Shown: piece after piece, positions 54,778-63,960 of the stretch
Numbering within the stretch: the first letter of the stretch is position 1
Layout of the letters: each line of letters starts with the position of its first letter
Source of the DNA: Candidatus Levyibacteriota bacterium
Lineage (GTDB): Bacteria > Patescibacteriota > Microgenomatia > Levybacterales > GWA1-39-11
NCBI GenBank assembly: GCA_036788695.1
Contig: DAIQMY010000001.1
Location: forward strand, 396,767 to 460,766
DNA: 64,000 bases
Reading direction: 5' to 3'
Position numbers and translations under genes: made by a program
The notes under the pieces: generated by a model
What the model was told of the DNA's origin: nothing
Database searches by the model: none
Seen by the model: the letters and a program-made list of their open reading frames with translations, nothing else

Positions 54778-55326
54778 ATGGAAAGTAATATTGAAAAAGC
54801 TATTATTGGAGCGCGGATTGAAGCAGAACGGAAAGCTAGCTATTATCAAGGAAAAAGCAGGTATGAGAAAGCCTACCATAAAAACTACGATAATAATCTA
54901 TCTGGATTCATAAATAGAAAAAAATATAGAAAAAGGCAAGAAAAACTTCAGGAAGACGAAGTCGCAGAACTAGAAAGTCTCTTTTATATGTGCTCTGTTA
55001 CAGATCTTTATTTTGGTGACAATAATTCATGGGTATTAAAAGCTTCAATGGATGATAGAGATATTGTTGTTAAGCAAAAAGAGAAGAATGGAAATCACTT
55101 TTTCTCTGTCTTGATAGATGGGAAAGTGCCACCAACTGAAGAAAAGTATAAAACCTATGCTAATAAATATTCTGGAGTAGTAGAGCGGATTAAATCTAGA
55201 TTAAGAAATCAGGAGTTATATAAAGAAGAAATAACAGAGGGCACAGGTGAAGAAATCTTGGAAAAACCAGCGGAGGGAAATCAAGCTAAGGATAAAAGTT
55301 CCAGGGATCATTTAAGGTTGCTTTAG
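54778..55326 (+). CDS. hypothetical protein
   Basis: 182 aa, charged, with no recognisable motif. Convergent with the next gene and overlapping it by 41 nt. Confidence 0.35.
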   Translation: MESNIEKAIIGARIEAERKASYYQGKSRYEKAYHKNYDNNLSGFINRKKYRKRQEKLQEDEVAELESLFYMCSVTDLYFGDNNSWVLKASMDDRDIVVKQKEKNGNHFFSVLIDGKVPPTEEKYKTYANKYSGVVERIKSRLRNQELYKEEITEGTGEEILEKPAEGNQAKDKSSRDHLRLL

Positions 55327-56131
55327 TGGTTGTATCTGAAACTCGTTTATATAAACCAACAACTCCAGGGTTTTCAGATAGATGCCATCCTAAATCAATC
55401 CAATCTTCATGTATCCCATAGTCACCCTCATCACCTATACTCAGAAGTCCAGATTTCTCATGATAAAGTGCTACAGGCGATAGAGCGTCACATTCTCTAA
55501 CTATACCTTTTCTTTTTAGAAATCTTTCTAAATCTGTGTAGAAATCAGGTCTTAAAATTACCCGTTTCTTTTCTTGAAGAAATGTAATCTCATCATCTGT
55601 ATCTGGTTCGTATTCATGCCTACGTATGGGATAGTTTTCTATAAAATCTCCAAATGTTATGTTATCGCTTAGCGCAAGAAATGGCAATTCTTCTGGTGAA
55701 TTTCTTTCAAATGCTAATTTATATAGTAACTCAATGTCTGTATCAGTGGGAGGAGGATTTCCTAAAAGTTCTCTGCGTACCACGTGAGCATTCCACAAGG
55801 AAGTTTCAATTTTATCTCCTAAATCTTTTAATTGAATTCTAGCAAGACCATTAGCGATGGGAAATTGAGGAAGAAGAAAGGCAGGATTGTTTGGGTCTGG
55901 ATACCATGCGCCAGCTTCAATTTCATATACGCCAGGAGTATCTAGCCTTCCAACAATTGGAGCACCTAATGGAGTTGTAATGTCTGCAAACTCATTAATA
56001 CTAAGAGGTAAGGTTGTTTGCACCGCTTTTAATTCTTCTGGATTTCGGGTATGTCTGTCCTTAAGTTCAAAAATTGATGGTATAGCCTGCAGTGTTTGTT
56101 TAAATAAGGGATTTAATTCAGGTGAAGCCAT
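55286..56131 (-). CDS. hypothetical protein
   Basis: 281 aa with no recognisable motif. Confidence 0.4.
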   Translation of the reverse strand: MASPELNPLFKQTLQAIPSIFELKDRHTRNPEELKAVQTTLPLSINEFADITTPLGAPIVGRLDTPGVYEIEAGAWYPDPNNPAFLLPQFPIANGLARIQLKDLGDKIETSLWNAHVVRRELLGNPPPTDTDIELLYKLAFERNSPEELPFLALSDNITFGDFIENYPIRRHEYEPDTDDEITFLQEKKRVILRPDFYTDLERFLKRKGIVRECDALSPVALYHEKSGLLSIGDEGDYGIHEDWIDLGWHLSENPGVVGLYKRVSDTTTKATLNDPWNFYP

Positions 56132-56387
56132 GGGGAGATTATATCACAGCATATCACAACGCTCATGGCAATTAAATTATTTTAGCCTTAAAATTGAGCT
56201 GGTTAGAGGAATTGTAAAAATTATCTTTAGTTTTAGTAAAGTGGCGCACTTGATCTCCTTCCAAAATGAACTTCGTTTCTATTACCCTCTTTGCATTTGG
56301 TGATCCCTAAAAAAAGCTTATGACCTACATATTCTCATAAAAAATCATATTCAAAAATCTAAAATAGTACTGTATAATAGTCTATTC

Positions 56388-58052
56388 ATGAAGCAATTAT
56401 CAGATCAATTAAAGTCAAATTGGAAATCAGGGCTTACAGTATCCTTTGTATCAATTCCACTTTCCATATCTCTTGCTATTGCTGCAGGTTCTACTCCAGT
56501 TGCAGGGATTGTAACTGCCATATGGGCAGGTTTTTTTGCTGCGCTCTTTGGAGGGAGCAGATTTAATATTGTTGGTCCAACAGGAGCTCTTTCGGGAATT
56601 CTCGCAACGTATGCATTTTTAAATGGAGCAGAAAGCCTTGCATTTTTAGCATTAGCAGTAGGAATTGTGATTATTATTTCTGGATTATTAAGACTTGAAA
56701 GATTCCTTATCTTTATCCCTGCAAATACTATACATGGGTTTACTCTAGGTGTTGCATTTATTATTGCAATAAACCAATTAAATGCTGCTCTTGGTCTTCA
56801 GAATATACCAGGTCATGAGAAATTTATTGATAATTTTTTTGAATCACTAAGAAATATTCAGTTTTTATCCATGGAAACGTTTATCGTTTTCGTAACCTTT
56901 CTTACAGGAATTTTAATAACTGAAAGGTATAGAAAAAGGATTAAACTTCTTGCAAATATACCCGCAACGGCACTTTTTGCCGTTTTAGGAGTTCTTATTG
57001 GGTTTTTGTCTTCTGAACACATTATATCTTTGAATATTCAGACATTAGGATCAAAATATGCACATTTATCAGGGCAGTTATTTATTCCTCCCCATCTTTC
57101 ATTTAACCTCACCGGAGGTTTTATTTCTGCAGTTCTCACCGTTTCTTTAATCGCAATTATTGAAACTATGCTATCTGCACGAATTGCTGATTCAATGACA
57201 AAAACAAAGCATAATAAGAAAAAAGAAATGTTTGGGCTTGGTATTGCAAATATTGCGTCTGGTCTTGCAGGAGGTATTCCTGCAACAGCAGCACTTGCTC
57301 GTACTTCCTTGAATATTAAAAGTGGTGCAACTGATCGCGCATCTGCTCTTGTAAGTTCTTTGTCGGTTGCCATAATCTCCCTTTTCTTACTTCCATACTT
57401 CAAATACATTCCAATGGCAGTAATAGCTGCTATCTTAGTAACCGTTGCTGTGCGAATGGTTGAACAAGAACATTTCGTGAGAATGTACAAAATAGACAAA
57501 AAAAGCTTTATCATCTCTATGCTCGTCGCTCTTGTAACAATTTATGAGGATCCTACTATAGGCATACTCTTTGGGGTGGCAATTTCGTTGTTTTTCTTTC
57601 TTGAAAATATATCTCAAGGAAGATTCGAGTTGGGAATTAATGACTTACATAAGAAAATGATTGCACAAATTGCAGGGAAACAAACTTACACGCTACACAA
57701 AAACTCCCACACAATCGTATATTCGATAAAAGGACATTTGACCTACATTGATAGTCAAGCTCATCTTTCACGGTTTGAAACTGAACATAAACATCATAAA
57801 AATATAATTTTAAGGCTTAGGGAATTAAGCTTTATTGATATAGATGGAGTAGATGCTTTTGAAGAAATTGTAAGTATTCTTGAGAGGCGCGGAATAGAAG
57901 TATATGTTACAGGCGTAAATGATTTCATACTTCATATGCTTCATAAGAGCAAGCATTTTATAGCTCTGCAAGAAAAAGGAAGGGTGTTTCCGCATACTAC
58001 AGATGCGCTGCGTTATCTGGGATTTAAAATTCCTGAGAAACACGTTATGTAA
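56388..58052 (+). CDS. SulP/SLC26-family anion (sulfate) permease with C-terminal STAS domain
   Basis: N-terminal transporter core (FGGSRFNIVGPTGALS) and a C-terminal STAS-like domain. Confidence 0.8.
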   Translation: MKQLSDQLKSNWKSGLTVSFVSIPLSISLAIAAGSTPVAGIVTAIWAGFFAALFGGSRFNIVGPTGALSGILATYAFLNGAESLAFLALAVGIVIIISGLLRLERFLIFIPANTIHGFTLGVAFIIAINQLNAALGLQNIPGHEKFIDNFFESLRNIQFLSMETFIVFVTFLTGILITERYRKRIKLLANIPATALFAVLGVLIGFLSSEHIISLNIQTLGSKYAHLSGQLFIPPHLSFNLTGGFISAVLTVSLIAIIETMLSARIADSMTKTKHNKKKEMFGLGIANIASGLAGGIPATAALARTSLNIKSGATDRASALVSSLSVAIISLFLLPYFKYIPMAVIAAILVTVAVRMVEQEHFVRMYKIDKKSFIISMLVALVTIYEDPTIGILFGVAISLFFFLENISQGRFELGINDLHKKMIAQIAGKQTYTLHKNSHTIVYSIKGHLTYIDSQAHLSRFETEHKHHKNIILRLRELSFIDIDGVDAFEEIVSILERRGIEVYVTGVNDFILHMLHKSKHFIALQEKGRVFPHTTDALRYLGFKIPEKHVM

Positions 58053-58075: not shown

Positions 58076-58149
58076 GTGTAACCCAAATGCAAAGCCCTGA
58101 GCCTGTCGAATGACTACCATTAGGCATTAGAATATGTTTCGGGTTGAAT
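58076..58149. repeat. mosaic repeat copy A: head and tail modules only
   Basis: GTGTAACCCAAATGCAAAGCCCTGAGCCTGTCGAA...CTACCATTAGGCATTAGAATATGTTTCGGGTTGAAT matches the head and tail of copy B. Confidence 0.7.
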
Positions 58150-58153
58150 TGGT

Positions 58154-58786
58154 TTATCGCAAGCTGTTGGCACTCTGCAGTGATGCGACCCCCATTGGAT
58201 TTGTAACTCTACTTCTCAAGCCTCTTCCGTATTTCCAAATTTCAACAGAATCGTATCTTGTTAGGTACTGAGTCCAAGGAAGTGTATCTCGTCTTTTATC
58301 GTGAATTACCTCTCCTACTGTAAAGTTTTTATGAAGAAATCTTCCGCCCCCGTAGCTTGGTACTCTCCCACTCTCTAATTCGCGTTCTGAAAATGTTACA
58401 ATAGCATCTTTCCAAATACCATCCAGGTCTTGTTCCTCTGTTAACATTCCCCAATCATTCAAATGGTAACTTCGGAATTTGCCTTGTGTGAGACCAGTTA
58501 CTTTTAATATAGTTCCAATGGTGAAGTCACCAACATTAAAAGTTTGCCCTTCTGATAAAGTTCTTATTGGATTTTCTGATCTGTTTAATTGCGCAGCGAG
58601 CATTCGGTTAAAATATGGGGCTTCTATCATACCCATACTATCGCGATTAGCATGTTTGACCATGGCTCTCCAAATAACATCAGGAGTATATTGAGGCTTG
58701 GGTTCGCTTGACCATTGACAAGAATCTTTGAAGCTATGACCACTCCAATTTTCTTGAATTTCATTTTTTCTTATTCTCTCAGCCAT
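58154..58786 (-). CDS. hypothetical protein (210 aa) bracketed by repeat copies A and B
   Basis: No motif recognised. The flanking 10-bp GCAAGCTGTT occurs at both ends (58151-58160 and 58820-58829). Confidence 0.45.
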   Translation of the reverse strand: MAERIRKNEIQENWSGHSFKDSCQWSSEPKPQYTPDVIWRAMVKHANRDSMGMIEAPYFNRMLAAQLNRSENPIRTLSEGQTFNVGDFTIGTILKVTGLTQGKFRSYHLNDWGMLTEEQDLDGIWKDAIVTFSERELESGRVPSYGGGRFLHKNFTVGEVIHDKRRDTLPWTQYLTRYDSVEIWKYGRGLRSRVTNPMGVASLQSANSLR

Positions 58787-58833
58787 GAGGGTGATTTTAG
58801 CTCGATTTTATATATAAAGCAAGCTGTTTAACG

Positions 58834-59049
58834 TGTGACCCACATGCAAAGCCCTGAGCTTGTCGAAGGGTTTTCCTGTCCTGAGCTTGTCGAAGGGTTC
58901 TCGCCCTTTGTGCTCGCAGGGAACCAAATTCGAAGCTCTTTGGAGCAGTGGAAACAGGTCTTGCAGTCTGAGCGTATTTCAGCTTCTTTTTTAATTACCA
59001 TGGGATACTTGGTACGAATGGAAATTAGAATATGTTTCGGGTTGAATAT
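58834..59049. repeat. mosaic repeat copy B, full length (about 216 bp)
   Basis: Modules GTGTGACCCACATG, a doubled CCTGAGCTTGTCGAAGGG, TTCTCGCCCTTTGTGCTCGCAGGG, AACCAAATTCGAAGCTC, TTGGAGCAGTGGAAACAGGTCTTGCAGTCTGAGC, and tail GGAAATTAGAATATGTTTCGGGTTGAAT. Confidence 0.75.
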
Positions 59050-59063
59050 TCCCCCTTAGGTAC

Positions 59064-59378
59064 TTGAATCTAATCAAAGAGGGTGCTAGAATTGGTCGTA
59101 ATATGTCAGAAAGAGAACGCCCAGAATGGGAAAGGAAAGAAAAGGTGGCGTTGAAATATAGCCCTAGCGATATGTTGCTAGGAGCACTTCAGGAAATTGC
59201 AAATAAATTTCATCTAGATAGTTTTGATGTAGCTCACGAGTTGTCTTTAAGGGTAGGTGCAAGCCTGCTTGCAGCAGAAAATATTTTTGACGAAAAAGGA
59301 TTAACAGTTTTAGATCCAAACGGGGAACGAGCTCATTTAAGTTTACCCAACGATGATGCTCATCAATCCGTTATTTGA
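59064..59378 (+). CDS. hypothetical protein (104 aa)
   Basis: Sits between repeat B and the GIY-YIG gene. No recognisable motif. Confidence 0.35.
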   Translation: MNLIKEGARIGRNMSERERPEWERKEKVALKYSPSDMLLGALQEIANKFHLDSFDVAHELSLRVGASLLAAENIFDEKGLTVLDPNGERAHLSLPNDDAHQSVI

Positions 59379-59387
59379 ATTCATAAA

Positions 59388-59421
59388 GTGTGACCCCACG
59401 GGAATGGATTCGGCAAGCTCA
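59388..59421. repeat. short repeat module GTGACCCCACGGGAA...CAAGCTCA abutting the GIY-YIG stop codon
   Basis: The same module recurs at 63628-63666 at the 3' end of the second GIY-YIG gene. Confidence 0.6.
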
Positions 59422-59727
59422 CCATTTTTTTCCAGAGTTATCCTTTGACACGCTCCGGGATTTACTTAACTGTTTTAACAACTCTAGATTGCCCTCGAGA
59501 AGAGCTCTCTTTTTTGCAACAGTCCAACCTTTAATTTGTTTTTCACGTTTTTCTGCATCTTTTCTTGTTAGATGCTCTTCAGTAAAAACTAGCTCAATGT
59601 AAGAAAACTCTTTAGTACCAATGTTTTGTTTTGATGTGTGAGATTTTAATCTTTGAGCAACGTTATGAGTAAGACCAACGTAGTACGTTTTCTTATCGCA
59701 AAAAAGAATATAGACATACCAGGGCAT
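59419..59727 (-). CDS. GIY-YIG nuclease family protein (YhbQ/UPF0213-like, about 103 aa)
   Basis: MPWYVYILFCDKKTYYVGLTHNVAQRLKSH...KGWTVAKK has the GIY...YIG pattern with conserved Arg and Glu. Start set at the ATG at 59727. The track ORF to 59895 is inflated by read-through of repeat C. Confidence 0.7.
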   Translation of the reverse strand: MPWYVYILFCDKKTYYVGLTHNVAQRLKSHTSKQNIGTKEFSYIELVFTEEHLTRKDAEKREKQIKGWTVAKKRALLEGNLELLKQLSKSRSVSKDNSGKKW

Positions 59728-59744
59728 ACACTTATTATGGTGTA

Positions 59745-59927
59745 AAACCCTGAGCTTGCCGAAGGGTGACCCAAATGTTTTTGAATTGCCCTGAGCTTGT
59801 CGAAGGGTTCTCGCCCTTTGTGCTCGGAGGGGAACCAGATTCGTGGCTCCCTCGAGAAATGGAAAACTGTCTTGGGGCCTGAGCTCACTCCGCATCTACT
59901 GACCCGCTACCACTAGAATTTAGAATC
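59745..59927. repeat. mosaic repeat copy C
   Basis: CCTGAGCTTGCCGAAGGGTGACCCAAATG...CCTGAGCTTGTCGAAGGGTTCTCGCCCTTTGTGCTCGGAGGGGAACCAGATTCG...CTACCACTAGAATTTAGAAT. Confidence 0.75.
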
Positions 59928-60883
59928 TTTTCTAATGGTGGATTGTTTTTCTGTATCTTTATTCCTAAGAGCTGAGGAATATCGGTTCTTATCCATACAT
60001 TATCAAGATTGTCTGAATACGGTTGTAATGGATCACGTCTAAGAGTGTCGGGAATTAACTTGTCTTCCCAGGTAAATCTCTGAACGTATTCGGTGTTGTG
60101 ATCCAACACCTTCTCAAGTGGCTGAGTTCGGGGAACTACTGCTCGTTGATCAACATCCTTTTCTTCGGGTACGTATGAAACAATCTCGACAGAGCTGGAG
60201 TTGACAGTAACTGCCATATTTCTTCCATTTCGCACTAAATCATATTCCTTTCCTATCTCAAGCGTTAGATCACCTTCAGTGAGATCGGACGAACCACGTC
60301 CTTTCAATACAGCTTCACCTGTCTCCTTATCAAATTTGATCTCTAGAGAATCGTTGTCCCATCCTTTTTCTGATCTATTTTGAGCCCGTAGGATATTATT
60401 ATCCATGAGTAGCAATCCTTCTAGGGTAGCGATAGTACTGTCTTGGAAGGCATAGTTAAAAGAAAGTTCAAGGTTATGGGCAAAAGGAATTAATACCCCT
60501 AGATTGTCTTCACTTTTATCAAGAACAGAGCCTACCTGGGTAATACCGATAGTATCTGGGTGATGAAGAGTAAATCCGCCGTTTTTCATGAAGGCAAGGC
60601 TAAAATTGGTGAGGTCATTGAGCAACTCACCTTCAGGAAATTCTGGCCAATCCATATCTAGGTCTGAATTCCAGGAGTCAGTCAAACGTAATATCCTCAC
60701 TTTTTCTCTTTTCGCAATTACATCTGCGCTTCCGGGTTCATTCCCAGCTCTAAACATATTTTGCTCATCAAGAATCACAGCATCCCTATTGTATGGTGCG
60801 TCTTTAAATGCTGCTCTTTGCTTATCAAGGTGGGTTCTGTGTAGATCTTCAGGCATATGAAGGTAGTATACACAAATATCCAA
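59885..60883 (-). CDS. hypothetical protein (332 aa)
   Basis: No recognisable motif. Flanked by repeat copies C and D. Confidence 0.45.
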   Translation of the reverse strand: MDICVYYLHMPEDLHRTHLDKQRAAFKDAPYNRDAVILDEQNMFRAGNEPGSADVIAKREKVRILRLTDSWNSDLDMDWPEFPEGELLNDLTNFSLAFMKNGGFTLHHPDTIGITQVGSVLDKSEDNLGVLIPFAHNLELSFNYAFQDSTIATLEGLLLMDNNILRAQNRSEKGWDNDSLEIKFDKETGEAVLKGRGSSDLTEGDLTLEIGKEYDLVRNGRNMAVTVNSSSVEIVSYVPEEKDVDQRAVVPRTQPLEKVLDHNTEYVQRFTWEDKLIPDTLRRDPLQPYSDNLDNVWIRTDIPQLLGIKIQKNNPPLEKILNSSGSGSVDAE

Positions 60884-60926
60884 GAGGGGAATAGGCCTAG
60901 CTTAAACCCAAGTTTGGTTGGAACCT

Positions 60927-61100
60927 AAATAGCCTTGAAAATTCGGGATTTGAAAAAGATTTCGAAAATATAGCTTCAGGTGACCCAAATGTTTTTGAAT
61001 TGGAACCAAATTCGAAGCTCGTTGGAGCAGTGGAAGCAAGTCTTACAGCCTGACTTCAATTCAAAGCTACTGACCAACTACCCCTAGGAATTGGAATACC
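60927..61100. repeat. mosaic repeat copy D
   Basis: AAATAGCCTTGAAAATTCGGGATTTGAAAAAGATTTCGAAAATATAGCTTCAGGTGACCCAAATG...GGAACCAAATTCGAAGCTCGTTGGAGCAGTGGAAGCAAGTCTTACAGCCTGAC...CCCCTAGGAATTGGAATACC. Confidence 0.75.
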
Positions 61101-61140
61101 GAGGGAATAGTAATAACTTACTTAGATAACCCTGAGTTGA

Positions 61141-61710
61141 CTACTTTTTCCTGAATGCTTGAAATATGAAGAAAATAAGCACAACTAAGCTTACAAGGTT
61201 TATTAGAAAAAGCGATGTCGTCCTATTGTAAATGTTTACTAAATACTCATGAGACCCAGCTTTGAGATGAAAATTTGCATAGTATTCAAAAATTCTCTGG
61301 ACTAAGATCAGCATTGATTGAATAAAGAAGTATATCCCAAGTCCTAGAAGCAACAGACGTATTCTTAAAATTGCATTCTGTTGTTTACTAAATGTTCTAT
61401 AGACAGCAAAAAATACAATACTTACGGCAAACAATAATGAACCCAATAAGATTGGTCCATATGTAATAAGTAGTGGATAGATAATTTCCAAAAAGTTTTT
61501 ATTCTGTTGCTGGTCGAGTGAAGCTCCATAAAATGCCCAGAAAAAACTTGCAGGCAGTACTACTCCAAATCCAAAAGGAATTGGAACTATGAAAAAAAGT
61601 GCGATATAAATTATGATAGCGAGAAAAAAGATTGGCATTATTTTTTTCATTGTTACTTGAAGTATTTCAAGATTTAAATAGTAAGTCAAGTAAGCTCTTG
61701 AGGGCTTCAA
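61141..61710 (-). CDS. hypothetical polytopic membrane protein (189 aa)
   Basis: Five or six hydrophobic helices. Flanked by repeat copies D and E. Confidence 0.45.
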   Translation of the reverse strand: MKPSRAYLTYYLNLEILQVTMKKIMPIFFLAIIIYIALFFIVPIPFGFGVVLPASFFWAFYGASLDQQQNKNFLEIIYPLLITYGPILLGSLLFAVSIVFFAVYRTFSKQQNAILRIRLLLLGLGIYFFIQSMLILVQRIFEYYANFHLKAGSHEYLVNIYNRTTSLFLINLVSLVVLIFFIFQAFRKK

Positions 61711-61715
61711 GGGAA

Positions 61716-61966
61716 TTCGAACTATTTTAGCTTCAAAATCAGAAGAATTTGTCGAAGATTTTAAAATTTAGCTTCAAGTGAGCCAAATGTTTTCTTTGAC
61801 CCTCGAAGCTTTAGCGAAGTGGGTTGAATTGCCTGGTACTCCAGGTTCTCGCCCTGAGTACTCGAAGGGGAACCAAATACGAAGCTCGCTTGAATAGTGG
61901 AAACAAGTAATTCAGCCTGAGCTTAGTTCAGGTTCTTTGGCTAACTACCATTAGAAATTAGAATCG
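61716..61966. repeat. mosaic repeat copy E
   Basis: GAATTCGAAC...AGATTTTAAAATTTAGCTTCAAGTGAGCCAAATG...TTCTCGCCCTGAGTACTCGAAGGGGAACCAAATACGAAGCTCGCTTGAATAGTGGAAACAAGT...CTACCATTAGAAATTAGAATCGGG. Confidence 0.75.
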
Positions 61967-61999
61967 GGTATAGAAGATGGAAGATAAGTTTAATAGAAA

Positions 62000-62533
62000 C
62001 TATTTAGTTTCAGAAGTAGCAAGTCTTTTAAAACCCTTAACTGGAAAATTAGCATTATCCTGTCTGAAAGATGTAATTTCTGTTCTCGGATTAAGCAGAG
62101 CGTGGTCTAGGGCCTCTTCAATTTCTTTTATGTCAGTCACCTTGTGTGGCATTCCTGATTCCATATGTTTTGAATCTCTTCCTCTTACAGTGACCCTCAG
62201 GGGATTGTCTCCGATGCTTATGCCTACTAAGTCTACTCTTCCAAACATCCATTTTTCAGGATCAAATTTATTTCCATATTCACCATGTTTTGTGAGATCA
62301 GTGATTAGGCATATCGTTGGGTCTGCTCCTTCTTCAATTGCTTGATCGGTTGAAATGCCTACTATTGCGCGTTGTCCTTGTTCTGTCAGAGAAGCTGCTC
62401 GATCAAGCGCCAGTGATACCATAGGAGAAGTTTTGAGTTTTGCTAGATCTGCCAGGCGATATTCTAAGCGTTTTTCCAAAATTGAAGCTGTAATCCTTTC
62501 CCGTTGTGGACCTTCATGTAACCGTGTACTCAT
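62000..62533 (-). CDS. hypothetical protein (177 aa)
   Basis: No recognisable motif. Flanked by repeat copies E and F. Confidence 0.45.
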   Translation of the reverse strand: MSTRLHEGPQRERITASILEKRLEYRLADLAKLKTSPMVSLALDRAASLTEQGQRAIVGISTDQAIEEGADPTICLITDLTKHGEYGNKFDPEKWMFGRVDLVGISIGDNPLRVTVRGRDSKHMESGMPHKVTDIKEIEEALDHALLNPRTEITSFRQDNANFPVKGFKRLATSETK

Positions 62534-62575
62534 AGATGCTATTCTATAACTATTTTAATGATTGTCAAGCAGCGC

Positions 62576-62618
62576 TTGTTCTGAGCCTGCCCAAGGACTA
62601 CCATTAGGAATTAGAATC
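62576..62618. repeat. mosaic repeat copy F: short head-tail form like A
   Basis: GTTCTGAGCCTGCCCAAGGACTACCATTAGGAATTAGAATCCA. Confidence 0.65.
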
Positions 62619-63525
62619 CATTTACTGCTGCAACAATATCATCGTCAGCTTGTTCTGTATCCCAAGCCACTTGAGGATTAAAATTATCGGGTCTAAAATC
62701 ATTTATTCTTTTGTAATCATCATCTGACATTATAAAATCGGTGGCAGAGTAATTCTCATCAATGTGTTTCTTGCTTGTAGAAAAAACCATTGGACTATAT
62801 CCTAAGTTACAAATCCAGTTTAGAACAATTTGATTTTGTGTCTTTCCATACTTTTCTGACAGCTCAACAAGTAAGGGCCAATTTTCCTCCATAGTCTTAG
62901 CTCTTCTTAAAGGTCTCCAGATTATATTTTTAACACCTAACTCATCACAAATATTGAATACCCCTTTATCTTGAAGCACCCTAACTTCAAAACTAAGGTG
63001 TCCTTCGTGAGCATAAAACTTATCACCAAACTCATTCTTAAAGGCTTTAATAAATTCGGGGCTGGCATTTGAAAGACTTACAAATCTCGTTTTCCCCGCC
63101 TGAAGTAAATCTTTTAGTATTGGATAGACTTCATCTTCACCAAACTTTAATACGAGTCCTTGTGTTATTAAGGTGGAGTCAGCGTAATCGGTATCCATTA
63201 TTTTATGAAAGCTTTCAACGTCTTCGGTAATTGTTTCTATGGACTGTAAGTCTCGTGGGTAAAAAGAGTGAGTAAAGAAAATATCTTCTCGCTTCACTGA
63301 GCTTTTATCGAGTGCTTGCTTAAAGATTTTTATTGAGTTTCCATGTCCGTAGCCTAATGCTATCTCAGTAAAATTTATTCCTTTATTTAGAGTATAAACG
63401 AGTGCTGAGACGTAGGTTTCATCATCCCGTTTTTCTGTCAGTTCAATATCTCTATGACCTCTACCACCAATCCCATAACTTCCTATTCCAATCCTTGATA
63501 CATCTTTACCAGAAATAGTTTTCAT
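62611..63525 (-). CDS. aldo/keto reductase family oxidoreductase
   Basis: IGIGSYGIGG, ALGYGHGNS...IF and the C-terminal IIWRPL-type motifs fit the AKR fold. Confidence 0.65.
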   Translation of the reverse strand: MKTISGKDVSRIGIGSYGIGGRGHRDIELTEKRDDETYVSALVYTLNKGINFTEIALGYGHGNSIKIFKQALDKSSVKREDIFFTHSFYPRDLQSIETITEDVESFHKIMDTDYADSTLITQGLVLKFGEDEVYPILKDLLQAGKTRFVSLSNASPEFIKAFKNEFGDKFYAHEGHLSFEVRVLQDKGVFNICDELGVKNIIWRPLRRAKTMEENWPLLVELSEKYGKTQNQIVLNWICNLGYSPMVFSTSKKHIDENYSATDFIMSDDDYKRINDFRPDNFNPQVAWDTEQADDDIVAAVNGF

Positions 63526-63569
63526 CTAATCGATTATATCATCAACTACCCAAAAAACACTTCGAACCG

Positions 63570-63666
63570 AAATAGCCTCAAAAACTGAAGATTTGAAAAA
63601 GATTTCGAAAATATAGCTTTATGTGACCCCACGGGAAGTTTCCTCGGTGAACTCGGAACAAGCTCA
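63570..63666. repeat. mosaic repeat copy G: shares the D-type 5' module and the GTGACCCCACGGGAA module
   Basis: AAATAGCCTCAAAAACTGAAGATTTGAAAAAGATTTCGAAAATATAGCTTTATGTGACCCCACGGGAAGTTTCCTCGGTGAACTCGGAACAAGCTCA. Confidence 0.7.
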
Positions 63667-63960
63667 ATTTTCAACTTCTCGAACGAGGTCTTTGGCAAAT
63701 TCAGTACAAGCGTTTATACCAAGTCTTTCATCTATTAACATTTGTTTCTTTGCGTGGGACCATCCTTTAAATTGTCTTTCTCTTTTTGCAGCTTCATATT
63801 TATTTTCGTATCGTTCACTGTAGACAAGAGTAAATCGAGAAAACTGTTTGGTAAAAGTGGATTGCTTGTTTTTATGTTGTAAAAATCTGTTTTTCAAATC
63901 ATCGGAAATTCCTACATAAAAAGTTTTCTCGTCGCAAAGAAGGATGTAGACATACCACAT
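63664..63960 (-). CDS. GIY-YIG nuclease family protein (YhbQ/UPF0213-like), second copy
   Basis: MWYVYILLCDEKTFYVGISDDLKNRFLQHKNKQ...FKGWSHAKK. Paralogous to the 59419-59727 gene. Confidence 0.7.
   Translation of the reverse strand: MWYVYILLCDEKTFYVGISDDLKNRFLQHKNKQSTFTKQFSRFTLVYSERYENKYEAAKRERQFKGWSHAKKQMLIDERLGINACTEFAKDLVREVEN

What the first reader, a model, noticed from the sequence alone, without database searches (positions are those of the whole stretch)
58154..62533. Five repeat-bracketed ORFs with no recognisable domains are candidate components of an unknown accessory system
The ORFs are 210, 104, 332, 189 (polytopic membrane) and 177 aa. None matches a family I recognise, yet each has a clean reading frame, is precisely delimited by repeats, and most are co-oriented. 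The 210-aa gene is additionally flanked by a 10-bp direct repeat GCAAGCTGTT at 58151-58160 and 58820-58829. A block of unknown genes packaged this way is typical of defence or variable islands.
Basis: inference. Interest (0 to 1): 0.6.

Follow-up and report, generated by a model that had tools for sequence, protein, structure and literature searches.

The report
tRNA-anchored mobile gene-cassette array
The five unknown genes are not one system: each is the cargo of a separate small mobile cassette stacked beside a tRNA-Glu gene in a Levybacteria (CPR) genome, each cassette ends in a conserved joint that also encodes a 32-residue micro-protein, and strains and even species swap these cassettes one at a time.

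Summary
Five ORFs (210, 104, 332, 189 and 177 aa) have no hit in Pfam, NCBIfam, PADLOC, PHROGs or PDB, and each is bracketed by repeats found nowhere else in the 64-kb window.

The "one unknown accessory system" reading does not hold. Each protein for which a database homology search was run has only 2-3 homologs in 5.8 billion clusters, and those homologs occur singly, next to different neighbours.

The block is the distal part of a strain-variable island. It is anchored at the 3' end of tRNA-Glu(CTC), which lies just past the window end.

The repeat is a ~120-bp unit with three parts:
- a near-invariant 21-bp motif;
- a conserved 32-codon micro-ORF (intact in 26 of 47 copies, pN/pS 0.39);
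- a 7-nt end that co-varies with the 3' end of the adjacent tRNA.

Three sister strains carry different cassette sets. Their indels end exactly at unit repeats or at 15-nt copies of the tRNA 3' end. The 673-bp 177-aa cassette is 98.7% identical in a species whose backbone is 81% identical.

Related arrays have a large serine recombinase beside the tRNA or beside a unit.

Best reading: tandem accretion of integrase-less mini-elements at a tRNA attachment site. That kind is known; this is a new variant. The function of the cargo proteins remains unknown.

The parts
58078..58133 (+). Unit A, short form. It has the core GTAACCC, a GC-rich hairpin-type filler and the 21-bp motif M1 (58113-58133), but no micro-ORF body. 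It is the most distal unit and abuts the 3' end of SulP.
   Evidence: retained next to a 57-nt SulP remnant in strain L080
58154..58786 (-). Cargo gene 1, 210 aa: soluble, basic, orphan protein.
   Evidence: only 2 homologs (80% and 54% identity) in 5.8e9 clusters, found in other arrays
58150..59047 (.). 898-bp indel unit (210-aa gene plus unit B). It is absent from sister strain L080 and bounded by the 23-nt direct repeat TTAGAATATGTTTCGGGTTGAAT (58127-58149 and 59025-59047).
58835..59031 (+). Unit B, degenerate. It has the core GTGACCC, 1.5 copies of the GC-rich hairpin insert M3 (58848-58921), the micro-ORF body without a start codon, and a decayed M1.
59064..59378 (+). Cargo gene 2, 104 aa (annotated as 91 aa from 59103): acidic and soluble. 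Only near-identical copies are known.
59390..59404 (+). Copy of the tRNA-Glu 3' end (GTGACCCCACGGGAA, reverse complement of the tRNA end). It is the left repeat of the 4,233-bp indel and the end of GIY-YIG mini-element 1.
59419..59727 (-). Free-standing GIY-YIG nuclease gene 1 (102 aa). It forms its own mini-element between the core of unit D and the tRNA-end copy.
59405..63637 (.). 4,233-bp block (GIY-YIG 1, the 332, 189 and 177-aa genes, aldo/keto reductase). It is absent from sister strain L080 and flanked by the 15-nt tRNA-end repeats.
59766..59926 (+). Unit D. It has the core GTGACCC, the hairpin insert M3 (59787-59831) splitting the micro-ORF start, the ORF body, and M1 (59906-59926). 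M1 overlaps the last codons of the 332-aa ORF.
59885..60883 (-). Cargo gene 3, 332 aa (annotated as 323 aa from 60856): acidic and beta-rich, with a strongly conserved C-terminal third.
   Evidence: AF2 model too poor to use (pLDDT 46); homolog P0033 sits beside a UG13b DRT reverse transcriptase; homolog P0034 ends directly at an M1 motif
60918..60979 (+). Module M5. This conserved sequence follows the core in tRNA orientation and lies upstream of the micro-ORF. The model treats it as the left end of the next cassette.
   Evidence: the same module directly follows the tRNA in L038 and L021
60980..61097 (+). Unit E, the one intact unit in the window. It has the core GTGACCC (60980-60986), the micro-ORF at 60989-61087 (MFLNWNQIRSSLEQWKQVLQPDFNSKLLTNYP*) and M1 (61076-61097).
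61141..61710 (-). Cargo gene 4, 189 aa (annotated as 165 aa from 61638): polytopic membrane protein with about 5 hydrophobic segments.
   Evidence: no homolog in any fetched locus
61768..61964 (+). Unit F, degenerate. Its core is GTGAGCC (the variant seen at tRNA-Lys(CTT) arrays). It has an M3-like insert, a micro-ORF body with an internal stop, and M1 (61944-61964).
61944..62616 (-). 673-bp single-gene cassette (M1, promoter, 177-aa gene, start of the next M1). It is 98.7% identical in a different species.
   Evidence: backbone identity to that genome is 81.3% over 12.7 kb
62000..62533 (-). Cargo gene 5, 177 aa: alpha/beta protein preceded by a near-consensus promoter match (62568-62541).
   Evidence: AF2 pLDDT 79.6; no PDB fold match (best E 0.68)
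62581..62617 (+). Unit G, short form: hairpin-type filler plus M1 (62597-62617), with no core and no micro-ORF. It overlaps the stop codon of the aldo/keto reductase gene.
62611..63525 (-).
63545..63637 (+). M5 copy (unit H) followed by the second tRNA-Glu 3'-end copy (63623-63637). This is the right repeat of the 4,233-bp indel and the end of GIY-YIG mini-element 2.
63664..63960 (-). Free-standing GIY-YIG nuclease gene 2 (98 aa), the tRNA-proximal mini-element. The anchoring tRNA-Glu(CTC) lies just outside the window, at about 64021-64093 on the - strand.

Best explanation
The five ORFs are unrelated orphan cargo genes of separate mini-elements. These elements have piled up in tandem at the 3' end of a tRNA-Glu gene of a Candidatus Levybacteria (CPR/Patescibacteria) chromosome.

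Read away from the tRNA, each element consists of:
- a short conserved left end (M5);
- one or a few genes (the 177-aa gene has a near-consensus promoter match);
- a ~120-bp right-end unit made of the 21-bp motif M1, a 32-codon micro-ORF on the opposite strand, and a 7-nt core identical to the last bases of the tRNA.

Inferred mechanism:
1. A site-specific recombinase supplied in trans recombines the core of a circular element with the identical core at the tRNA 3' end, or with the core of a resident unit. A large serine recombinase of the type found in related arrays is the most likely enzyme.
2. Each new element is inserted and the older ones are pushed outward.
3. Recombination between two directly repeated cores or units removes or transfers blocks of one to several cassettes.
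4. Ordinary homologous recombination within the near-invariant M1 additionally swaps single cargo genes.

Shown here: the anchoring at the tRNA, the unit anatomy, protein-level constraint on the micro-ORF, core/tRNA co-variation, strain indels ending at the repeats, and inter-species transfer of one cassette.

Inferred: which enzyme acts, that a circular intermediate exists, and any role of the micro-protein.

The cargo proteins' functions remain unknown. They do not act together.
For: 1. Location. tRNA-Glu(CTC) sits 60 nt beyond GIY-YIG 2. In every array with enough context, the units lie 0.4-5 kb on the 3' side of a tRNA and on the opposite strand. This holds for about 17 tRNA-Glu arrays, including this one, and one tRNA-Lys(CTT) locus recovered from three samples.

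2. The unit end co-varies with the local tRNA 3' end: GGGTCAC, GGGGTAC or GGCTCAC.

3. All junction types predicted by site-specific integration are seen: unit-core-M5 (window unit E), tRNA-core-M5 (L038, L021), and unit-core-backbone (L084).

4. Breakpoints between strains fall on the repeats.
- W versus L080: a 4,233-bp indel flanked by 15-nt tRNA-end copies, and an 898-bp indel flanked by a 23-nt repeat.
- L005 versus L006: the sequences diverge exactly at GGGTCAC.
- L091 versus L093: homology starts at the first base of the core.

5. Three sister strains with 95-99% identical flanks carry different cassette sets.

6. The 177-aa cassette is 98.7% identical over 673 bp, against 81.3% for the backbone.

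7. Large serine recombinase genes abut the tRNA (L100/L105) or lie beside a unit (L125).

8. The units are confined to one locus. There are none elsewhere in the 64-kb window, and true hits of the M1 genome scan fell in one locus per genome.

9. The micro-ORF is intact in 26 of 47 distinct copies, with the same start and stop. pN/pS is 0.39, against 0.97 and 1.42 in the shifted frames.
Against: - No recombinase gene lies in the array, in the 64-kb window or in the 10 kb beyond it. Only 2 of about 20 arrays show a serine recombinase at the array itself; a third (L084) sits at the neighbouring tRNA-Lys.
- Several breakpoints lie at M1 rather than at the core: both ends of the 177-aa cassette, and the 898-bp indel. 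A pure core-crossover model does not explain them.
- The shared core is only 7 nt for most units.
- No circular junction or empty site was observed.
- Two short units (A, G) lack the micro-ORF, and G lacks the core.
- Tyrosine recombinases were not systematically excluded from the rest of the genome.
Confidence: 0.65

Rival explanations
1. No dedicated recombinase acts. The units are simply copies of a small functional gene (the micro-ORF) plus conserved flanks. All gain, loss and inter-species exchange of cargo happens by homologous recombination between units after DNA uptake, as with 'minimal mobile elements' flanked by conserved genes.
For: Breakpoints at the longest invariant stretch, M1: the 177-aa cassette, the 210-aa cassette versus L076, and the 23-nt repeat of the 898-bp indel. 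No integrase in this array. The micro-ORF is under purifying selection, so it is a gene in its own right.
Against: This does not explain why arrays always start at a tRNA 3' end or why the unit end co-varies with that tRNA. It does not explain breakpoints at the first base of a 7-nt core, the exact 15-nt tRNA-end copies flanking the GIY-YIG elements, or the serine recombinase genes placed against cores.
Confidence: 0.17
2. The two free-standing GIY-YIG nucleases drive the variation. They cut unoccupied tRNA-end or unit sequences, and repair from an occupied allele co-converts neighbouring cassettes. This would be intron-less homing, as with phage T4 Seg proteins (that comparison is from my own knowledge).
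For: Two diverged GIY-YIG genes (47% identical) sit inside the array, each immediately after a core and each ending in a tRNA 3'-end copy. The 104-aa gene and GIY-YIG pair is conserved between strains. GIY-YIG genes lie near tRNA-Glu in L110 and L125.
Against: Most arrays have no GIY-YIG gene. These proteins are about 100 aa, a catalytic domain only, with no DNA-binding domain to give site specificity. Homing does not create flanking target duplications. In L110 and L125 the GIY-YIG gene lies on the other side of the tRNA.
Confidence: 0.08
3. It is an integron or a CALIN (a cluster of attC sites lacking an integrase), and the units are attC sites.
For: Mostly single-gene cassettes, largely co-oriented, separated by ~120-bp conserved sites. 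Cargo is dominated by proteins of unknown function.
Against: The units have no inverted-repeat or hairpin architecture. RNAalifold found 0-9 pairs, and single-strand DNA folds are no better than shuffles (z -0.7 to -1.1). No conserved GTTRRRY at the boundaries (by inspecting the sequence). No IntI gene. At least the 177-aa cassette has its own promoter-like site. The site is conserved in sequence and partly protein-coding. The anchor is a tRNA gene, not attI.
Confidence: 0.02
4. The five ORFs are co-functioning components of one unknown defence or accessory system.
For: Co-localisation in a variable island. An allelic version of the locus carries CBASS. One 332-aa homolog neighbours a UG13b defence-type reverse transcriptase.
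Against: No linkage of any two of the five in any other locus. Sister strains carry subsets: the 104-aa gene alone in L080, and the 177-aa gene alone in L009. The five are separated by recombination units; the 177-aa gene has a near-consensus promoter match. No PADLOC hits.
Confidence: 0.03
5. The repeats are ordinary dispersed intergenic MITE- or REP-type elements that happened to insert between pre-existing genes.
For: A GC-rich hairpin module (M3, CCCTGAGCTTGTCGAAGGGTTCTCGCCC...) is nested inside units B, D and F and looks like a small insertion element.
Against: The units are confined to one tRNA-linked locus per genome. They have no terminal inverted repeats or target duplications of their own. 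Gene content between units differs among strains, with breakpoints at the units.
Confidence: 0.03

Closest known systems
Tandem accretion of integrative elements and their decayed, integrase-less derivatives (CIMEs, cis-mobilizable elements) at a tRNA-gene att site, described for ICESt1/ICESt3-type elements (review PMC5704250)
   Same: Elements are stacked at the 3' end of a tRNA gene. Each is bounded by att-type repeats that include the tRNA end. Most have lost, or never had, an integrase. A larger element with conjugation genes occupies the same site in an allelic assembly (L006). Composite blocks are present or absent as units.
   Different: The elements here are tiny, 0.4-1.2 kb and usually one gene. 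The repeated joint is a 120-bp unit with a conserved micro-ORF rather than a plain tRNA fragment. The host is a CPR bacterium. The likely recombinase is a large serine recombinase. Mobilisation has not been shown.
Prochlorococcus genomic islands built by tycheposons (bioRxiv 10.1101/2020.12.28.424599)
   Same: Hypervariable islands in a streamlined genome lie next to specific tRNA genes. Successive integrations push older elements outward. Partial tRNA copies are scattered through the island. Cargo is mostly of unknown function.
   Different: Tycheposons are defined by a particular clade of tyrosine recombinases and often carry replication modules. Neither was found here. This array instead has serine recombinases in related loci and the micro-ORF unit.
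Dehalococcoides ssrA-specific genomic islands (PMC3146451)
   Same: Islands integrated at a small RNA gene (tmRNA). This comparison rests on the abstract listing; I did not read the paper.
   Different: From my own knowledge, those islands are multi-kb, each encodes its own serine recombinase, and they are flanked by direct repeats of the ssrA 3' end. There is no micro-ORF unit, and the target is ssrA rather than a tRNA.
Chromosomal integron cassette arrays
   Same: It works like one at the level of outcome: a single locus accumulating small, mostly single-gene cassettes of unknown function, separated by conserved ~120-bp sites, with cassette-by-cassette exchange between genomes.
   Different: There is no IntI, no attI and no attC hairpin. 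The site is conserved in sequence and is protein-coding. At least one cassette has its own promoter-like site. The anchor is a tRNA gene. It is not a member.

Membership tests
tRNA-gene-targeted integrative elements in tandem accretion (CIME-like) | Array begins at the 3' end of a tRNA gene | tested here: met
   tRNA-Glu(CTC) directly flanks the array. The same configuration is seen in every related array with enough context.
tRNA-gene-targeted integrative elements in tandem accretion (CIME-like) | Elements bounded by direct repeats that copy the tRNA 3' end | tested here: met
   15-nt exact copies at 59390-59404 and 63623-63637. The 7-nt core of every unit matches, and co-varies with, the local tRNA end.
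tRNA-gene-targeted integrative elements in tandem accretion (CIME-like) | Presence/absence polymorphism with breakpoints at the repeats | tested here: met
tRNA-gene-targeted integrative elements in tandem accretion (CIME-like) | An integrase of matching specificity, in the element or in trans | tested here: inconclusive
   None in the window or in the 10 kb beyond it. Large serine recombinases abut the tRNA in L100/L105 and lie beside a unit in L125. The rest of this genome could not be searched.
tRNA-gene-targeted integrative elements in tandem accretion (CIME-like) | Excision to a circular form and re-integration | not testable with these tools
   Needs read-level or experimental data.
Tycheposons | Tycheposon-clade tyrosine recombinase, usually with a replication module | tested here: not met
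   No tyrosine recombinase or replication gene in this array or in the sampled array-associated ORFs.
Integron / CALIN | attC sites: imperfect inverted repeats (R''-L''...L'-R') that fold into a hairpin | tested here: not met
   RNAalifold gave 0 and 9 weak pairs on the two strands. Single-strand DNA folding gave z -0.7 to -1.1 against shuffles.
Integron / CALIN | IntI integrase with attI and Pc next to the array | tested here: not met
   Flanking genes are SulP, the 281-aa ORF, tRNA-Glu and rhodanese.
Known anti-phage defence systems | Match of the proteins to a defence-system model | tested here: not met
   PADLOC gave 0 hits for all five. Hits exist only for neighbours in other loci: CBASS in L006 and the UG13b reverse transcriptase in L074.
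Multi-gene system / operon | Conserved linkage of the genes across genomes | tested here: not met
   tblastn of all five against all 130 fetched loci: homologs of different cargo genes never share a locus.
Dispersed MITE/REP elements | Many copies at unrelated intergenic sites, with terminal inverted repeats or target duplications | tested here: not met
   Copies occur only at 58-63.7 kb of the window. There is one locus per genome in the genome-collection scan. Only the nested M3 hairpin fits this description.
Free-standing GIY-YIG homing endonuclease genes | GIY-YIG catalytic domain | tested here: met
   Pfam PF01541, E 3e-15 and 1.5e-15.
Free-standing GIY-YIG homing endonuclease genes | Site-specific cleavage of the unoccupied target | not testable with these tools
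   Biochemical assay needed.

The most novel reading that the evidence does not exclude
This is a previously undescribed cassette platform of CPR bacteria that does the job of an integron by different means. Very small, mostly single-gene cassettes are captured at the 3' end of tRNA-Glu (occasionally tRNA-Lys) by a trans-acting large serine recombinase. The attachment site is a ~120-190-bp unit (M1, micro-ORF, tRNA-matching core, M5). The 32-residue micro-protein it encodes is a cassette-borne recombination accessory or directionality factor, expressed only when M5 and the core are joined.
Probability: 0.25. Interest if true: 0.75.

Novelty: new variant of a known kind. Interest (0 to 1): 0.55.

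Why it matters
CPR/Patescibacteria have tiny genomes, few recognised mobile elements and almost no genetics, so how they acquire new genes is poorly understood.

This locus shows a concrete route. A single tRNA-linked slot turns over cargo gene by gene between strains and between species: a cassette 98.7% identical sits in a backbone 81% identical.

The slot is marked by an easily searchable 120-bp signature, which has three practical uses:
- it flags the flexible gene pool in CPR metagenome bins;
- it supplies candidate att sites and serine integrases for genetic tools in this phylum;
- it identifies a conserved 32-residue protein tied to a recombination site, which is unusual and testable.

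It also corrects the annotation logic. The five orphan proteins should be studied one at a time, not as a complex.

Tried and rejected
- Structured RNA. Rfam found nothing in the region at gathering or E-value thresholds. RNAalifold on 14-16 copies gave no supported structure on either strand. Rejected.
- Whole unit as a pseudo-tRNA. Global alignment to the local tRNA is no better than shuffles in 4 of 5 cases (z 0.4-1.6; one case 3.5). Only the last ~28 nt resemble the stretch from the T-loop to the 3' end.
- Micro-ORF as a fragment of a larger protein. A profile search of 5.8e9 clusters found only 11 proteins, of 31-76 aa.
- Shine-Dalgarno reading of AGGTGA before the micro-ORF. It is not conserved, because that stretch is the tRNA-matching core and changes with the tRNA.
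- Viral origin. The 10 viral-contig pattern hits are chance matches; none matches the unit profile.
- The M1 pattern scan of genomes gave mostly chance hits outside CPR.
- Weak sequence hits of the 177-aa protein to repeats in giant surface proteins gave no consistent domain.
- The promoter and terminator scan is not enriched over shuffles. Only the promoter-like site of the 177-aa gene stands out.
- An inverted-repeat reading of the sequence around the core was seen by eye in some units. It was not tested systematically and is not relied on.

Full report
WHAT THE WINDOW IS

The proteins of the region match a Candidatus Levybacteria (Microgenomates, CPR) metagenome-assembled genome exactly. 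Their accessions are HMS22574-HMS22585, on a 491-kb contig.

THE OBSERVATION

Public gene calls shorten three of them, to 91, 323 and 165 aa.

- None has a hit in Pfam, NCBIfam, PADLOC or PHROGs. The four checked (210, 91, 323 and 177 aa) have no PDB sequence hit.
- The 189-aa protein is polytopic.
- The bracketing repeats are real and occur only between 58053 and 63663 of the 64-kb window.
- The 10-bp repeat GCAAGCTGTT exists, but at 58159-58168 and 58819-58828. One copy is coding sequence. It is not kept as a repeat in the homologous cassette L076. It is not where strains differ.

WHAT THE REPEAT IS

I aligned the window copies with copies from other genomes. This gave a ~120-bp unit with invariant blocks but no secondary structure:

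- RNAalifold found 0 and 9 weak pairs on the two strands.
- Rfam found nothing.
- Single-strand DNA folds are no better than shuffles.

The variation is instead three-periodic. On the window + strand the unit encodes a 32-codon ORF, MFxNWNQIRxSLEQW(K/R)xxLxPxxxxxxxxNYH*. Synonymous replacements include Ser AGC to TCA.

Of 47 distinct copies collected, 26 keep exactly this ORF. Codon-position entropies over the first 20 codons are 0.83, 0.51 and 1.13. pN/pS is 0.39 (0.26 for codons 1-20), against 0.97 and 1.42 in the shifted frames.

A profile search of 5.8 billion protein clusters finds only 11 proteins, of 31-76 aa. The ORF is therefore not a piece of a larger protein.

The stop codon lies inside a 21-bp motif, M1 (ACTACCATTAGGAATTAGAAT). 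M1 is conserved as DNA whichever frame is read: some copies end ...TTIGY* instead of ...NYH*.

Some units are split by a GC-rich hairpin insert, M3 (B, D, F). Two are short forms without the ORF body (A, G). In the window only unit E (60980-61097; ORF at 60989-61087) is intact.

THE ANCHOR

Extending the contig beyond the window (L005; coordinate x corresponds to window 73526-x) shows a tRNA-Glu(CTC) at about window 64021-64093. It lies directly beside GIY-YIG gene 2.

Its last bases, CTTCCCGTGGGGTCAC, recur as the reverse complement at 59390-59404 and 63623-63637. Every unit begins, on the + strand, with GTGACCC, the reverse complement of the tRNA end.

In all related arrays with enough context, the units lie 0.4-5 kb on the 3' side of a tRNA-Glu and on the opposite strand. 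One locus, recovered from three samples, uses tRNA-Lys(CTT).

The unit's terminal 7-mer co-varies with the local tRNA end: GGGTCAC, GGGGTAC or GGCTCAC.

A conserved module, M5, follows the core inside arrays. In L038 and L021 it follows the tRNA itself. Together these give the junctions that site-specific integration predicts: unit-core-M5, tRNA-core-M5, and unit-core-backbone.

EVIDENCE OF MOBILITY

Three sister strains have flanks 95-99% identical to this one but different gene content between the 182-aa gene and tRNA-Glu:

- this strain: the 281-aa ORF, SulP, the 210 and 104-aa genes, GIY-YIG 1, the 332, 189 and 177-aa genes, aldo/keto reductase, GIY-YIG 2;
- L001: the 281, 266 and 103-aa ORFs, a methyltransferase, a GNAT acetyltransferase;
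- L080: a 164-aa ORF, the 91-aa gene, a GIY-YIG gene.

Relative to L080, this strain has two extra blocks:

- 898 bp (58150-59047: the 210-aa gene plus unit B), bounded by a 23-nt direct repeat;
- 4,233 bp (59405-63637), bounded by the 15-nt tRNA-end copies.

An alternative assembly of the same array (L006) diverges exactly at GGGTCAC. On the far side it carries type IV secretion genes, a CBASS cyclase with a 2TM effector, and a PLD-family gene.

L091 and L093 share 472 bp that begin at the first base of a core.

The 673-bp unit 61944-62616 (177-aa gene with its promoter-like site) is 98.7% identical in genome GCA_017992235.1. That genome's backbone is 81.3% identical over 12.7 kb. The block runs from the start of one M1 to the start of the next.

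Breakpoints therefore cluster at two places: the core, and M1.

WHICH ENZYME

No recombinase gene is in the array, the window or the next 10 kb.

In related arrays:

- a 524-aa large serine recombinase abuts tRNA-Glu, and its reading frame runs antisense through the tRNA (L100/L105);
- a split serine recombinase lies about 175 nt from the distal unit's core (L125);
- another serine recombinase overlaps the neighbouring tRNA-Lys(TTT) (L084).

This makes a trans-acting serine recombinase the best candidate. That is an inference.

THE CARGO

The three proteins for which a database homology search was run are near-orphans:

- the 323-aa protein has 2 homologs, at 45% and 42% identity;
- the 210-aa protein has 2, at 80% and 54%;
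- the 177-aa protein has 3 close relatives at 43-55% among cluster representatives, plus a 98%-identical copy in another species.

For the other two:

- the 104-aa protein is known only from near-identical copies;
- the 189-aa protein was absent from the exact-match lookup and has no homolog in any fetched locus. It was not searched against the large protein databases.

Homologs of different cargo genes never share a locus. The 336-aa homolog in L075 again ends directly at an M1 motif.

One 332-family member sits beside a UG13b defence-type reverse transcriptase. This is a lead, not a function.

Cargo sampled from 95 array-associated ORFs is a mix of orphans and assorted enzymes. The enzymes include GNAT acetyltransferases, S51 peptidases, an APH-type kinase, a dCTP-deaminase-like protein, a HAD hydrolase, a protein kinase and a methyltransferase. 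A PIN toxin-antitoxin pair also occurs in L125.

The 177-aa model (pLDDT 79.6) has no PDB fold match. The 323-aa model is unusable.

COMPARISON WITH KNOWN SYSTEMS

The locus works like tandem accretion of integrative elements and their integrase-less derivatives at a tRNA att site (CIMEs, PMC5704250). It also works like the tRNA-linked hypervariable islands of Prochlorococcus (bioRxiv 10.1101/2020.12.28.424599).

It is not a tycheposon: there is no tyrosine recombinase and no replication module. It fails the defining attC test for integrons.

What is unusual:

- the size of the elements, at single-gene scale;
- the 120-bp joint with a selected micro-ORF;
- the CPR host.

VERDICT

'Variable island' is right, and 'one accessory system' is not supported.

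The mechanism is most likely site-specific accretion at tRNA-Glu, with added homologous exchange at M1 (confidence 0.65). It is a new variant of a known kind, of moderate interest.

Noticed in passing
window 60989-61087 (+); degenerate copies in 58835-59031, 59766-59926 and 61768-61964: A conserved 32-codon micro-ORF (MFLNWNQIRSSLEQWKQVLQPDFNSKLLTNYP) lies inside the inter-gene repeat. It is under purifying selection (pN/pS 0.39 over 26 intact copies). In 5.8e9 protein clusters it is known only as 11 tiny unannotated proteins. Its function is unknown.
   Followed up: yes
window 59419-59727 (-) and 63664-63960 (-), with 59390-59404 and 63623-63637: Two diverged free-standing GIY-YIG nuclease genes (47% identical) each form a ~0.4-kb mini-element. 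Each starts right after a GGGTCAC core with TTCGGCAAGCTCAG and ends in an exact 15-16-nt copy of the tRNA-Glu 3' end. A solo TTCGGCAAACTCAGTGCAAGCACT footprint without the gene sits in a unit of L009 (around 1600).
   Followed up: partly
window 58848-58921, 59787-59831, 61825-61869: A GC-rich ~45-nt hairpin module (CCCTGAGCTTGTCGAAGGGTTCTCGCCCTTTGTGCTCGGAGGG, which translates as '...PELVEGF...') is nested inside three units. It splits the micro-ORF start and looks like a separate miniature insertion element.
   Followed up: partly
L006:1-7400 (alternative assembly of the same array, ERZ27240680): At the tRNA-proximal end this variant carries TraC-like and VirB4/TraG-like genes, an M23 peptidase, a CBASS cyclase (PADLOC 2.7e-138) with a 2TM SLATT effector, an HTH gene and a PLD-family gene. 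They are joined to the array exactly at GGGTCAC. This looks like an ICE-like element using the same site.
   Followed up: partly
L074:233-2702: The closest homolog of the 332-aa protein (P0033, 45% identity) is divergently adjacent to a full-length UG13b defence-associated reverse transcriptase (PADLOC 1.3e-115). The family may be an RT-associated partner.
   Followed up: no
L100:3736-5310 and L084:4343-5890: Large serine recombinase ORFs run antisense through the whole adjacent tRNA gene (Glu or Lys). The last ~30 residues (..PPRGFEPL..) are therefore encoded by the tRNA's complementary strand.
   Followed up: partly
window 61768-61774: Unit F has the core GTGAGCC (GGCTCAC). This is the variant that matches the tRNA-Lys(CTT) end in L090, not the local tRNA-Glu. 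It hints that units move between tRNA sites.
   Followed up: no
window 55286-58052; L080:9161-9848; L009:1723-2538: The 281-aa ORF and SulP are also variable. L080 lacks both but keeps the last 57 nt of SulP beside unit A. A 48%-identical 271-aa homolog of the 281-aa ORF is itself a unit-flanked cassette in L009.
   Followed up: partly
window 59885-59926 and 62611-62617: The cargo genes end inside or against the M1 motif. The last 14 codons of the 332-aa ORF, and the stop codon of the aldo/keto reductase, are supplied by M1. M1 carries stop codons in two of the three frames on that strand.
   Followed up: no
genome-collection loci L019, L033, L038, L042, L057, L059, L066: Several records titled 'uncultured Gammaproteobacteria bacterium' carry the unit. 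L038 and L059 also carry Levybacteria-like backbone genes (Lon 73-81% identical; in L059 also PMT_2 and rhodanese). Their taxonomic labels are probably wrong.
   Followed up: no
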